Source: Octopus sinensis
Lineage: Eukaryota
Direction: 5' to 3'
DNA length: 31,487 nt
Assembly: GCF_006345805.1 (NCBI RefSeq)
Contig: NW_021829631.1
Coordinates: 1-31,487, forward strand
Of this stretch, positions 17,501 through 29,500 are shown piece after piece. Position numbers and translations under genes: made by a program. The notes below the pieces were generated by a model that saw nothing but the letters and a program-made list of their open reading frames with translations, did not search any database and was not told where the DNA came from. Position 1 is the stretch's first letter, and every line of letters starts with the position of its first letter.

Positions 17501-20500
17501 TGCTCCTTTCCAGTGTGCTCTGTCTTTGGGTAGAGTAGGTGGGTGGAGTGGAATATTGAAGCCTGTCATTACTTTTACTTCATCCAGTTATGGGGTATAG
17601 AAGAAGCAAAATTACTATGACTAACAATGTTTATTGTCCGTGAGATAGATTGCCATATTCCTCAGTGAAATATTCTCTCGTTCATCAGGGTAACACTACA
17701 GATTCAACGGATAAGCAATCCTTCTTACTATAGAAACAAGGCCTGAAATTTTGGGGCGGGGGATAGTCGATTACATCGACCCCATCACTTAATTGGTACT
17801 TAATTTGTTGACCTCGAAAGGACGAAAAGCAAAGTCGGCGGGATTTGAACTCAGAACGTAGCGGCAGAAGAAATACCTATTTCTTTACTACCCACAAGGA
17901 ACTAAACACAGAGAGGACAAAGAAGGACAGACAAACGGATTAAGTCGATTATATCGACCGCAGTGCGTAACTGGTACTTAATTAATCTACCCCGAAAGGA
18001 TGAAAGGCAAAGTCGACCTCGGCGGAATTTGAACTATCTATCTATCTATCTATCTATCTATCTATCTATCTATCTATCTATCTATCTATCTATCTATCTT
18101 GCTAGCTGGCTAGCTATCGTTCCTATTTCTGTCTTTCTTTCTTTCTCTCAGTTATTCATTTATTCTTTCTTTCATTCTTTCATTCATTCTAACTTTCTTT
18201 TTCTTTCGTTCTTTCTTTCTTTCCCCCCCTCTCTCTCTTCCTCCTTCAACTACGCCTTCTCGTAAATCACTCTTTTTTCTTGAAACCCACTCCCACACTC
18301 AAAACTCTCCCTGTCTCCTCCTCCTCTCTTACTTTCTTATGTTATATCTCATTTAAATTTCTCTGTTTCAGATCGACAAATTTAACGTTGGAGATGCAGT
18401 TAGGATACTTGATGATACCGAAAAAGTTAAAAGATATCAGGTTAATCATGGTGGATGGATTTCTGATATGACATCGGTGAGTGTATTTCTTAAGTTGTGT
18501 AGTTCCTAATATACCTAGTTTGCTCGACAAACGATGCAAGTTGGTTCACCCACAACTGTCATGTTTTATTTTCTTGACATAGTATGTAAATAGATATACG
18601 AATGCACGCATATATGCATATATTTGTGTACCATTTATAACTTTTCTACTTGCAGTTCAACCGTCTAAAAACGATATTTGATTTTCAATTTCTGTAATTT
18701 TTCTGTTATGTAATGTCTAATTTTCTTTGGTATCCTTTATTCATTTAATATAGTACTCGAGTAAAGAATAAAGACTTCCTTTGGCGATGAATGACCATGG
18801 AATTGCCCGTGGAAAGTTACCCTTCGAGGAACAAGTCTGGGTAAGGTTGATTTTAATGGAAGACCAGCTGTCACCCATACATACCAGCCTCCACACTCTA
18901 CGCCACCGATGTTATCCAAGGGAAAGGCAAAGGTCGTTACAGCTTAGCAGCAGTGACGTCGCAACTCATTTCTACAACTGAGTGAGCTGGAGCAACTTGA
19001 AATACAGTGTCATACTCAGGAACACAACACACAGACAAATGACTGAAACAAGTAAAAGAATAAAAGAAGAAAAGAATATATATTTATATACACATATATA
19101 TATACATATATAATACTTACATATAGTAATATAATAAGAGTAAATAATAGTTTGAATAGTTTTTTTTTTTAAACCAACAATTATTTACGGGTAGATTTCG
19201 GCATGTAAATATAACCATTAACGGTAGGAACTTTTATAAAAAAAAGTTCAATATATATTTTTGTATATAAATAAAAGGGGCAAGCAACAGGTTGCTTAGC
19301 CACATACCGAAAAAAATTAGAAATAGCAGTCAAAGACTGTTTATTTCTATTTTCTACAAATGAGACTCCACATACGACATATCCCTGTAATTCACATATG
19401 TAAAACAGATGGAAGAAATAACGAAAGCAAAGTCTAAGGGTTATTTACGAACGCGTTTCTGGATTAGAAATACTTACATATATATCTAAGTACATAAATG
19501 TGTAATGGACGCAAGCATTATCTTTTGAACCATTAAAAATAGATATGTATATCGTTAATTTGATCCCTTATGATTTTTTTTTCAGCCTGTTCATATGACG
19601 TGGATCAAATTTACAGTTTGACTTCATTTAGCATGTTGTTTGTATCTTTGTAGGTATTAGGCAAAATTGGTACCATAAAAATTGCATTCCCAGACGGTGA
19701 TTTGCTTGTGTCGGTGTCTGGTAAAATATTTTTATTCAACCCTCTGTGCTGCACAAAAGTACCCCAAAGTATGAAAGTTGGGGAAGAAGATGATGCTAGT
19801 GAGTTTAACTGTTTTTTCTTCGTTTTCCTTCACACTTATTATTGATATATAAATGGGGGTACATGATGTAAAGTTCTGTATTTATATTGAATTAACACTT
19901 ATAGGTCTGAAAATTCTGTGATTACACAATTTTAAAAGATAACTTACGTTGGAATTTATTATATTATAAGTTACTGGAGTGCTATCTGATTGTTCCGTCT
20001 GAGCTGCACATGGAGTAATGCAATGATATTACCATGTATTCATTCCGTGTTTAAATACACCAATAATAAACTACCTCCTATCCGGAATCACTGGGACCAG
20101 ACGATAACTGAATTTTCAAGTTATCTGAGCACGACTTTTTAAATTACCATAATGCTTTAAAAATTCATTAAAACCTGCTATATACGTCCATTTCATTAAT
20201 TTTCTGAATATAGTAGAAATGTGAGAAAATGGAAGAACTTACAGTATAAGTTAAATAATTAATAATTTCTGTTGACCTAATAAAATACAGCTACTCAAAG
20301 TGCAGTAAAATAAAATACTTTACAATACTTTGGGAAGCAACGAAACATTTTAAACACAACAGAAACCTTTTAATAACGATTAGTTAGTTAACACAAATTC
20401 GTACATATTGACTCTAATTAACAATGTTTATTTTACCCTTTTCTATGTACTGATTGCTTAAGAGTTCTGGTTATAGGAGTACTAGATAACAGGGTGTTGA

Positions 20501-26500: not shown

Positions 26501-29500
26501 AATAGATACCTTGTGCTGCGATACCCCAGTGTCAGCTTTCCTTCCACTTTTGGAATCCAGCCTGGAAGTTGTTTTCCGTAAGCGAGTCGAGAACTTTCTG
26601 TGATTTTCTCTGGATCTCAACAACGGTGTTAAAACGACGACCTTTGAGCTGCGTTTTCATCTTGGAGAAGAGATGGAAACCAGCGGGTGCTAAATCTGGC
26701 GAATAGGGATGCGAATAGGACGGATGTGAAAGCTATTCCATGTCATTTTTGGCAAGAAACTCACGAGTGAGGAGAATTCGGTGACAGGGTGCATTGACGT
26801 CGAGAAGAAGCCAATTCTTCATGCTTCACAGATCCGGTCATTTTCGTTGAAAGACCTCCCTCAAAAGCTTCAAATCATCACGGTAGAATTCACGATTGAC
26901 GGTCGGGACCTCGGAGACGAATTCTTGATGCACAATACCACATTATTAGGGGTGATGCTCTTCGCAGGTCTTCCGAGTCACTCATTGTCTTCCAGAGATA
27001 TCCTGCGTACTCGTGATTACGAAAGTACAAATTCCACAACTTGCAAAGTAAACACAGCGATGTCTCTCGGTACACTGACTCATGAAGATCACTGCTAGCT
27101 CTCATTGGCAGAGTGTTGCCAGCTGTTGGCGCGCTACAGAACTAGTCAGGGAACGTTTTGATGTCACATCGTATTTTCCTAATTTCAGACATTTTGCTTA
27201 CATTCAACTAGAAGTATTTACTTTAATAATTAAACTTTCACGACTACTTATATAGAATCAATGGATGACATGCTACAAAAGCTCTTTAATATGAGATTTG
27301 GTGTCACAGTTCTAGATGGTTTCGTAAAGGATGCTGCTAAAGGCCATACACGAAATGTTCGAGAATTTATCAAAAGTCATCGAGATGAAGTAAGCTGTTA
27401 TCTATATATCTGTCATATCAAATGTTCATTGCATTCAACTCTTCTTCTTCTTCTCTTCTTCTTCTCTTCTTCTTCTTCTCTCTTCTTCTTTTCTTCTTCT
27501 TCTTCTTCTTCTTCTTCTTCTCTTCTTCTTCTCTTCTTCTTCTTCTTCTCTTCTTCTTCTTCTTCTTCTTCTTCTTCTGCATCTTTTTCTTCTTTCTACA
27601 AACCTCCTCCTCCTTGTCCTTCACTCCTGCCTCTTTCTCCTCCTTCTCCTCGTCCTCCACTTCCCCTTCATCATCCTCCCTTTCCTCTTCTTTGCATACC
27701 CCTCCTCCCCTCCTCGCCTCATCTCCTCCTTCCTCTCGTCCTCCTCGTCCCTTTCTTACTCCTCCCGTTCATTTTATTTTTCTTGTTCCTTCTTTATTTA
27801 AGCCTGTTATCCAGGCGATACTGGTGACCTCCTCCCAGAGTGGTGGAACTGATGAGCCTCATATGCTACCTGGACATTTGTCAGTGAACGAGCAACGAGA
27901 GCTGTCTGCTTAAGAGTTTCACATCAAATCGAAACGGTTACCTGCTTCAAGTCTACTACTTGGCACTGTAGGACAAGTGCTTTCTACCTTATGTCATGCG
28001 TACAAAATTTGGAAGACAGAAACTCTATGGACAATTTCTGTTGCCTAGTTTAACAATACTACATGGCCCTTGGGGTCCTTTAAAACTGCCAATCCTATTA
28101 TACGCATCCCTCTAGTCTGAGAATATTTTGTGCTTCGGGACCGCTCTGAATCACCTCTCTTTGTTTCTTTGCCTTTCTCTGCTCTGCTCTCTCAATCGTC
28201 CTTCATTTTTAATTGCTCTGAGTACATTTTCTGTCACTCTCTCGCTCTCGCCACAGGTTGATAAAAAATGTTCTGGTAAAACAGCCTTACAAGTTGCTAG
28301 TTTTAAAGGCCACAAAGACATCGTATTGATGCTTTTGGAGGCCGGAGCTAACATAGAACTACAAGATGACGACGGGGATACGGCATTGCATTTCTCTGCG
28401 TTTGGGTATGTTTTTTACAGCATCCTCTGATTATCTCAAAAATTTCAGATTAAATTTTGCTTACCATTTTTTGCTTTTTTCTGAATTATTTCGTATTATT
28501 ATTATTATTATTATTATTATTATTATTATTATTATTATTATATTATTATCATCATCATTATTATTCAGTAGTTTTATTTTTATAGTGTGCTTTCACTTCA
28601 CTACCAAGCGCAGCTCTGTGTGCCTTGGGTATGTGCTGTGATTTGTTGTGATGCTCTGATGGTTATTGTATTGAAAGTGTTCTGCGTAGGATGTGTGCAG
28701 TGCCTAGTCGTGCAATTTTCTGTATGTTATATGTATTTGTAAGTCCTGGTGCTTTTGTTATGTATTTGTCTGAATACTTTTTTTATCATACCTAATGCGC
28801 CTACTATGATAGGAATTGTTTCTGTTTTTAGATTCCACATTCTGGTTACCTCTATTTCCAGGTCTTTGTATTTTGAAAGTTTCTCCATTTCTTTTAGAGA
28901 CACGTTGTCATCTGCTGGTATTGATACATCAATTAGAAAGCATTTTTTTCTGGTCTGTTGGCCTTAATTTCTGTATCTGTGTGTATCGGCATATCCCAGA
29001 GTATTGTTGCTTTCTCGTTTTCTGTGACCTTTTCTGGTGTGTGCCTATACCATCTTTTTTCTGTTGTTATTCCATAATGTTGGCATTATTATTATTATTA
29101 TTATTATTATTATTATTATTATTATTATTATTATTATTATTATTATTATTATTATTATTAATATTATTATTATTATTAATATTATTATTATTATTATTAT
29201 TATTATTATTATTATTATTATTATTATTATTATTTTTAATATTATTATTATTATTATTATTATTATTATTTTTAATATTATTATTATTATTATTATTATT
29301 ATTATTATTATATTATTATTATTATTATTATCATTATTATTATTATTATTATTATTATTATTATTTATTATTATATTATTATTATTATTATTATTATTAT
29401 TATCTGATATAATATTTCAGAATATAAAAATTCTTTCTTCAGATATCCCTAGGAATAGATCGAGTCACTGTTATAATCGATTTTCCAACGTATTTGATTT

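What the first reader, a model, noticed from the sequence alone, without database searches (positions are those of the whole stretch)
18372..27389. Three-exon block duplication gives a third Mib/REP repeat, with splice phases that allow modular swapping
Seen: exons 3/4/5 and 6/7/8 are paralogous. Exons 3 and 6 are both 105 nt with tcg/gtgagt(g/a)tattt donors; exons 4 and 7 share 26 of 27 nt (tttgcttgtgtc.gtgtctggtaaaat); exons 5 and 8 both start in phase 1 with S(S)M..M+..+FN. Known: MIB1/MIB2 have two REP repeats. Inference: exon 4 (phase 1) can splice straight to exon 8, and exon 2 (phase 0) to exon 6, so the locus could yield REP1+REP2, REP1+REP3 or REP1+2+3 ligases, a cassette system for diversifying substrate recognition.
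Basis: partly seen in the sequence, partly recalled or inferred. Interest (0 to 1): 0.72.

Follow-up and report, generated by a model that had tools for sequence, protein, structure and literature searches.

The report
Octopus three-repeat, headless MIB2 offshoot
This octopus gene is a copy of the ubiquitin ligase Mind bomb 2 that lacks its main substrate-binding head, gained a third binding repeat through an old three-exon duplication and has lost a key activating arginine; the transcript assemblies examined keep all three repeats, so it likely works as a weak ligase or tuning partner of normal Mind bomb 2 rather than as a splice-switched cassette.

Summary
Observation confirmed: exons 3/4/5 and 6/7/8 are a duplicated REP2a–REP2b–linker unit of MIB2, giving three Pfam SH3_15 repeats. 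The cassette-splicing reading is not supported. In 5 of 5 spliced runs with exon cover (3 studies) only the linear path appears, though contigs can drop minor isoforms. The compatible phases are inherited from MIB2. The duplication is old and shared by sister genes of a tandem octopod subfamily; one sister gene lost the middle unit in its DNA, so REP1+REP3 exists as a gene, not as an isoform. Exon 7 is one base short in this contig, an assembly error. The gene has no MZM domain. On a 99%-identical sister contig, the terminal RING has Cys (Ser in O. bimaculoides) at the linchpin arginine, which 63 of 65 other MIB RINGs keep. Best reading: a fast-evolving, likely attenuated MIB2 derivative that can likely pair with MIB2 through its coiled-coil/RING. 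Three or more REPs recur in unrelated MIB-like proteins. The scan earlier noted other octopus MIB2 offshoots (ankyrin–RING–death domain) on other DNA, not this one.

The parts
7628..7820 (+).
   Evidence: AG..GT bounded. 73-79% matches lie upstream of three other family loci. RNA contigs run 118-177 nt upstream of exon 1.
14368..14513 (+). Exon 1, first half of REP1. Homologous to the MIB2 REP1a exon (acceptor ttcag|GTGAATT), with an in-frame TAA just before a new ATG at 14391, so no MZM can be joined in frame through this acceptor
   Evidence: spliced to exon 2 in 4 of 4 RNA runs
15798..15911 (+). Exon 2, second half of REP1, phase 0-0
18372..18476 (+). Exon 3, first half of REP2, 105 nt, phase 0-0 (unit A)
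19654..19798 (+). Exon 4, second half of REP2, 145 nt, phase 0-1 (unit A)
21871..21974 (+). Exon 5, degenerate copy of the MIB2 linker exon, phase 1-0 (unit A). Predicted flexible spacer, the fastest-changing part (19 of 33 residues identical to O. bimaculoides)
23297..23401 (+). Exon 6, first half of REP3, 105 nt, phase 0-0 (unit B)
24352..24492 (+). Exon 7, second half of REP3, phase 0-1 (unit B). One base is missing near 24388 in this contig only (assembly error)
27256..27389 (+). Exon 8, full linker exon leading into the ankyrin region, phase 1-0 (unit B)
   Evidence: z=20 against the MIB2 linker exon
28257..28405 (+). Exon 9, ankyrin repeats
30365..30521 (+). Exon 10, ankyrin repeats. The gene runs off the window; the remaining ankyrin exons and both RING exons lie on the near-identical contig G000:C9915 (33273 down to 22152)

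Best explanation
The window holds the first ten coding exons of an expressed octopus gene derived from MIB2 that has no MZM domain, carries three REP repeats made by one old duplication of a three-exon unit, is spliced through all three in the assemblies examined, and likely acts as a catalytically weakened ligase that tunes normal MIB2. Shown: the architecture is REP x3, ankyrins, RING, coiled coil, RING. The duplicated unit is phase 0-0, so it was frame-neutral. The duplication predates the radiation of a tandem subfamily beside canonical MIB2. One sister gene later lost the middle unit, so repeat number varies by gene, not by splicing. The linchpin arginine of the terminal RING is Cys or Ser in all three Octopus species. 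Inferred: targets are chosen by the REP repeats alone; REP3 hangs on flexible linkers and adds avidity or a second site; ubiquitin transfer is slow with UBE2D-type E2s; the conserved coiled-coil/RING lets the protein dimerise with itself or with MIB2, where it would act as a scaffold subunit, lending new substrates or damping MIB2 on shared ones.
For: Domains; REP match to human MIB1. No MZM: Mib_Herc2 hits lie only at canonical MIB2 (C26:20.27 and 20.30 Mb), C13, C20 and C10; no MZM tblastn hit in the window or its sister contigs; stop before the ATG. Linear splicing. One old duplication: in a DNA tree of 8 units, unit A of three genes groups 98/96 and unit B plus the 2-REP gene's second repeat groups 89/88, the latter sister to another gene's REP3 at 99/99. 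AU tests reject grouping this gene's REP2 with its REP3 (p=0.00016) and the 2-REP gene's repeat with unit A (p=0.0005). Intron flanks sort the same way. No remnant of unit A in the 9,038-base intron of the 2-REP gene. Origin: family clade 100/100, sister to octopod MIB2 87/89 (also 48). Linchpin: aligns with the Arg after the last CxxC of MIB1 RING3, PDB 8v0d; that is R996, which contacts the E2 (bioRxiv 10.1101/2024.03.01.582834, passages). 63 of 65 other terminal RINGs have R and 2 have Q. In RNF38, R to S gave minimal activity and R to C cut E2-Ub binding 22-fold (PMC12326332, sections 7-8). Heterodimer model with MIB2: score 0.67, best control 0.02; mark reached by 51 of 78 solved and 2 of 108 mismatched pairs; contacts agree at least 96%, partner pLDDT at least 85. 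It likely passes by likeness to the solved MIB1 dimer. Drosophila Mib1 lacking MZM behaves as a REP-dependent dominant negative (PMC11887331, passages).
Against: No activity, substrate, partner or co-expression with MIB2 was measured. Linchpin effects depend on the E2, and XIAP works with Tyr there (PMC12326332). The complex model shows likeness only and cannot tell which family member binds. The linchpin exon lies outside the window, on the 99%-identical contig C9915. The unit B clade is not starred (89/88), and the 70-column protein tree leaves it open. RNA evidence is from assembled contigs, which drop rare variants. The gene evolves much faster than MIB2 (86% against about 99% identity between two Octopus species; REP2/REP3 dN 0.31, dS 0.58), which fits relaxed constraint as well as a new role. 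The linchpin count includes isoforms and close relatives, so rows are not independent. The fly result is for Mib1, and no stock could be kept for analysis.
Confidence: 0.6

Rival explanations
1. One reading: alternative splicing yields REP1+REP2, REP1+REP3 and REP1+2+3 ligases from this one locus at meaningful levels.
For: All needed joints are in frame. Contigs drop rare variants, and 148 plus 19 joints were not shown. Few tissues were sampled. A natural REP1+REP3 gene exists, so that product is viable.
Against: No listed skip in 5 of 5 covered runs from 3 studies; unbranched contigs across all relevant splice sites; minor intron-3 contigs at 5-30% of exon depth were kept in the same runs. 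0 of 10 database proteins of the gene lack a repeat, whereas the 2-REP sister gene has seven annotated isoforms. The phases are ancestral.
Confidence: 0.1
2. A stand-alone, fully active ligase with new substrates: it homodimerises, uses an E2 that does not need the linchpin arginine, and does not regulate MIB2.
For: The frame is intact in three species. The coiled-coil/RING is conserved (54 of 59 residues between species) and all zinc ligands are kept. Non-Arg linchpins occur in working ligases. The C10200 sister gene keeps Arg.
Against: Arg is nearly fixed in MIB terminal RINGs. Cys and Ser are poor linchpins in RNF38.
Confidence: 0.22
3. A redundant duplicate under relaxed selection; the third repeat and the linchpin change have no specific role.
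For: Fast evolution. Broken or partial neighbours in the cluster. The Arg change is one CpG transition, CGC to TGC.
Against: Open frame and 86% identity across species; dN below dS between repeats; REP3 as conserved as REP1 and REP2 (59/68, 58/70, 57/68); spliced transcripts in 5 runs.
Confidence: 0.08

Closest known systems
Mind bomb 2 (MIB2; octopus canonical copy XP_029651673.1, P0017)
   Same: Same exon boundaries and phases from REP1 onward; REP, ankyrins and two RINGs; nested among cephalopod MIB2 in trees.
   Different: No MZM (Mib_Herc2-ZZ-Mib_Herc2); three REPs instead of two; linchpin Arg replaced by Cys or Ser; about ten times faster protein change.
Human MIB1 (PDB 4xi6, 4tse REP; 8v0e ankyrins; 8v0d coiled-coil/RING3)
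   Same: REP, ankyrin and terminal RING match by sequence or fold.
   Different: MIB1 has MZM, two REPs, three RINGs and Arg996.
Engineered Drosophila Mib1 lacking MZM (PMC11887331, passages)
   Same: REP-ankyrin-RING without MZM.
   Different: An artificial Mib1 with two REPs; dominant negative in flies, whereas the octopus gene is natural and kept across species.
RING heterodimers with one scaffold subunit (MDM2/MDM4, RNF2/BMI1; named in PMC12326332)
   Same: Proposed mode of action: a paralogous weak RING pairing with an active one.
   Different: Pairing here is only modelled, and the domain family is unrelated.
Unnamed MIB-like proteins with 3-4 REPs (P0142, P0149, P0178, P0181, P0175, P0239)
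   Same: Extra REP repeats before the ankyrins; P0181 also shows no MZM (its start may be cut off).
   Different: They fall outside the octopus clade on long branches: independent gains.

Membership tests
MIB2 | N-terminal MZM (two Mib_Herc2 plus ZZ) | tested here: not met
   in-frame stop before the start codon
MIB2 | REP region of two Mib (SH3_15) repeats | tested here: not met
   Repeats are present but there are three
MIB2 | Ankyrin array | tested here: met
MIB2 | Two C-terminal RINGs, the last preceded by a coiled coil | tested here: met
   (exons on sister contig C9915)
MIB2 | Descent from MIB2 rather than MIB1 | tested here: met
   shared exon structure
MIB2 | Linchpin arginine in the terminal RING | tested here: not met
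   Cys in O. sinensis and O. vulgaris, Ser in O. bimaculoides
MIB2 | Ubiquitin ligase activity on Notch ligands or other substrates | not testable with these tools
   needs biochemistry
Alternatively spliced cassette of duplicated exons | Duplicated exons with compatible phases | tested here: met
Alternatively spliced cassette of duplicated exons | More than one junction path in transcripts | tested here: not met
   Linear path only in 5 of 5 covered runs; minor isoforms cannot be excluded by contigs
RING heterodimer scaffold subunit | Dimerises with an active paralog | tested here: inconclusive
   Model passes (0.67, best control 0.02; mark reached by 51 of 78 solved and 2 of 108 mismatched pairs), likely by likeness to the solved MIB1 dimer

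The most novel reading that the evidence does not exclude
Octopods evolved a tandem family of MZM-less MIB2 offshoots that act as interchangeable regulatory subunits. They differ in REP number (two or three) and in catalytic tail (active RING, linchpin-dead RING, or no terminal RING), and this one heterodimerises with canonical MIB2 to redirect or damp it: a natural, endogenous dominant-negative Mind bomb, with modularity encoded across genes rather than by splicing.
Probability: 0.3. Interest if true: 0.7.

Novelty: new variant of a known kind. Interest (0 to 1): 0.42.

Why it matters
REP function apart from MZM is poorly understood, and in flies an MZM-less Mib1 is harmful. Octopus keeps and expresses natural MZM-less genes with two or three REPs and with different catalytic tails. 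This gives a ready-made series for asking what REP repeats bind alone, whether an unpaired third repeat adds a site, and why some RING ligases keep a poor linchpin. It also corrects the databases: the truncated 289-291 aa models on this contig come from a one-base assembly error, and the label MIB2-like hides the missing MZM.

Tried and rejected
The look-up of sequencing runs listed no holder on record as RNA; runs were judged spliced from their GT..AG joints. Run X19 gave no exon cover and is no evidence either way. The loose end at 23359 in X13 is exon 1 sequence mapping onto exon 6 through a shared 19-nt stretch, not a junction. The first structure prediction, on a shallow alignment, failed for the REP region (pLDDT under 50); a deeper one worked. 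Atlas searches gave only MIB-type clusters and no taxon for P0142. The ankyrin dN/dS was out of frame and is discarded. A real frameshift or pseudo-exon 7 was rejected. A recent duplication within this gene alone was rejected. No death-domain hit lies in the C26 19.3-20.4 Mb cluster or on the four small contigs (28 hits, a lower bound). The structural paper on JAG1 binding (PMC4355479) is not held, so substrate-contact residues in the REPs were not checked. Literature searches (octopus+MIB2+expansion; octopus+mind bomb+notch, 51; mib2+mollusc+gene family expansion+ubiquitin ligase, 52; cephalopod/mind bomb/paralog/ubiquitin ligase, 94) listed no paper on this family by title or abstract. The library lacks most subscription journals, and I read no supplements; genome-paper gene-family tables could mention it. 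No divergence date is cited (seen as a listing only). The place look-up of earlier findings returned nothing.
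Full report
Identity. The window is contig G000:C6102 of a 2.72-Gb genome. Exon 4 matches proteins named E3 ubiquitin-protein ligase MIB2-like of Octopus sinensis (100%) and O. bimaculoides (94%). The cluster also holds an O. vulgaris protein and three short models on a 31,487-base contig. Two more contigs, C9915 and C6146, carry the same gene at 96.6-99.2% identity; C9915 holds it whole.

Observation. Ten coding exons were delimited and confirmed by GT..AG joints in RNA contigs. 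Exons 3 and 6 are 105 nt with the stated donors, 72/105 nt identical. Exons 4 and 7 share the 26-of-27 stretch and 81 of their first 111 nt. Exons 5 and 8 share only their start (29 of 45 nt; 15 of 2000 protein shuffles reach the score). Pfam gives three SH3_15 repeats, ankyrins and two RINGs. An AlphaFold model with a 21-row alignment folds all three repeats alike, with low-confidence linkers at residues 156-199 and 269-296 around REP3.

Assembly error. Exon 7 in the window is 141 nt, so the linear path reads out of frame and stops in exon 8. This explains the 289-291 aa models. C9915 and C6146 have 142 nt. X11, X12, X15 and X18 all insert A at 24389 at full depth. DNA run X2 has a +A allele (44.4) and a +C allele (31), and no row for the short form.

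Splicing. Six RNA-like runs were laid: X11, X12, X15, X18, and X18 again, X19 and X13, beside DNA run X2. Five cover the exons (three studies); X19 does not. Every listed exon joint is linear. In X18 one 667-nt contig spans exons 1-4 and one 598-nt contig spans from the end of exon 5 to exon 10. In X11 one 1092-nt contig runs from exon 4 onward. A retained skip would branch these contigs. Intron-3 contigs at 5-30% of exon depth were kept in X11, X12, X15 and X13, which gives a rough sensitivity. However, 148 and 19 joints were not shown, the tool warns that contigs drop rare variants, and short low-depth connections are the kind assemblers remove (recalled). So a major skip isoform is excluded in these samples and a minor one is not. 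All 10 database proteins of the gene keep three repeats, one with a cut first repeat, and searches over 155-496 and 425-1355 aa found no skip form. Phase compatibility carries no weight: canonical MIB2 has the same exons and phases, a 0-to-0 unit is what lets a duplication keep the frame, and 16 in-frame skips are formally open among exons 1-9.

History. SH3_15 hits cluster on C26 at 19.35-20.36 Mb and on small contigs (29 matches). Canonical MIB2 lies at C26:20.27-20.32 Mb. Two further loci (C26:19.377-19.391 Mb and C10200) have the doubled unit, and one (C26:19.41-19.47 Mb) has two REPs. O. vulgaris has related models with near-consecutive accessions on one chromosome-sized record. A DNA tree of eight units puts unit A of three genes together (98/96) and unit B with the 2-REP gene's second repeat (89/88; 99/99 with one REP3). 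AU tests reject a duplication private to this gene (p=0.00016) and placing the 2-REP gene's repeat with unit A (p=0.0005). Intron flanks sort the same way, with z up to 23 within classes. No trace of unit A was found in the 9,038-base intron of the 2-REP gene. So the unit duplicated once, early, and REP1+REP3 arose by loss in DNA. The protein tree of 44 repeats agrees where resolved but leaves unit B open. In an ankyrin-region tree the family (100/100) is sister to Octopus plus Argonauta MIB2 (87/89), and joining it to Octopus MIB2 alone is rejected (p=0.008). This points to an origin before that split, with the caution that the family evolves fast and no Argonauta member turned up by name.

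How common three REPs are. Of 78 hits, 62 have two REPs, 6 one, 7 three and 3 four. Of the best 150, 53 have three or more, up to 13; that search favours multi-repeat proteins (own profile, at least 25 bits and 45 residues). Named mollusc MIB2s have two. Unnamed MIB-like proteins with 3-4 REPs plus ankyrins fall outside the octopus clade. Extra REPs are therefore recurrent in general, and not ancestral in mollusc MIB2.

(1) No MZM. Exon 1 is the MIB2 REP1a exon with a stop and a new ATG, and no Mib_Herc2 match lies near any offshoot. MZM mediates most of Mib1's activity on Delta, and a fly Mib1 without it acts as a REP-dependent dominant negative (PMC11887331, passages). (2) Linchpin. The terminal RING aligns with MIB1 RING3, the only catalytic RING and, with its coiled coil, the dimer interface; R996 contacts the E2 (bioRxiv 10.1101/2024.03.01.582834, passages). 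Of 108 proteins examined, 69 had a terminal RING matching the pattern: 63 Arg, 2 Gln, and the 4 of this gene Cys or Ser (rows include isoforms). In RNF38, Ser there gave minimal activity and Cys reduced E2-Ub binding 22-fold (PMC12326332, sections 7 and 8). Sister genes differ: C10200 keeps Arg, and the 2-REP gene ends after the first RING. (3) Rate. The protein is 86% identical between two species, against about 99% for MIB2.

Mechanism. Shown: architecture, linear splicing in the contigs examined, history, loss of MZM and of the arginine. Inferred: REP-only target choice, slow ubiquitin transfer, and dimerisation through the conserved coiled-coil/RING. A model of the heterodimer with MIB2 scored 0.67 against a best control of 0.02 (mark reached by 51 of 78 solved and 2 of 108 mismatched pairs; contacts agree at least 96%, partner pLDDT at least 85). 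A like dimer is solved (8v0d), so this shows a kept interface, not binding in cells. I commit to an attenuated ligase that tunes or redirects MIB2 (0.6 for the whole statement; about 0.9 for the structural and historical part), ahead of an independent active ligase (0.22), a splice cassette (0.10) and drift (0.08).

Verdict. A real duplication, an unsupported splicing cassette, and a different, testable point of interest: a new variant of a known kind. Earlier AI notes of this scan describe other octopus MIB2 offshoots ending in death domains. I checked only that many weaker RING-like matches exist elsewhere in the genome and that no death-domain hit lies in this cluster. Interest 0.42.

Noticed in passing
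window 21871-21874: The exon 5 acceptor is polymorphic: run X18 has a second allele with CAG in place of the first three bases plus four more changes. Annotated isoforms differ by 1-2 residues here, which suggests a tandem acceptor in some alleles.
   Followed up: partly
window 18449-18931 and 19311-19682: RNA contigs run into intron 3 from both flanking exons at about 5-30% of exon depth in X11, X12, X13 and (5' side listed) X15. Retention would stop translation shortly after exon 3.
   Followed up: no
window 22191-22520: A piece inside intron 5 is covered by low-depth contigs in all five spliced runs, while 20804-21370 has no cover; unexplained.
   Followed up: no
G000 C6102, C6146, C9915; window 19675-19758: Three contigs differ from each other by 0.2-2.5% in substitutions. 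DNA run X2 shows an exon 4 form with five changes, found in none of the three contigs and not in the same sample's spliced run X13. Recent extra copies are possible.
   Followed up: partly
window 774-905: An exon-like open frame after an AG acceptor, no Pfam match, found only here and on C9915, where it is only 84% identical in protein while the gene's exons are 94-100%.
   Followed up: partly
window about 16070-17350: A mariner-type transposon with a frameshifted transposase (Pfam Transposase_1) sits in intron 2.
   Followed up: partly
window 8168-9226 and 10138-10587: Two fold-back elements: 314-nt arms at 95% and 110-nt arms at 100%, likely non-autonomous transposons.
   Followed up: no
window 14478-14496 and 23366-23384: Exons 1 and 6 share 19 identical bases (25 of 26) over the glycine-tryptophan motif, although REP1 and REP3 are the most distant repeats.
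   Followed up: no
L016:6490-9530 (G000:C26 19.376-19.380 Mb): This sister locus has an inverted, partly doubled REP1b exon and a frameshift in REP2b in this assembly, while the O. vulgaris model P0018 reads through.
   Followed up: partly
L036:727-2719, L038:1421-3411, L027:7625-8727, L033:6404-6505: REP1-only fragments and an inverted, identical copy of MIB2's REP2a exon lie in the cluster.
   Followed up: no
L011-L014 (G000:C10200): This sister gene keeps the linchpin arginine but showed no match above 42% identity for the linker and first two ankyrin exons.
   Followed up: partly
P0128, P0129, P0147 (unnamed proteins): Proteins with 10-13 Mib repeats, one behind a PH domain.
   Followed up: no
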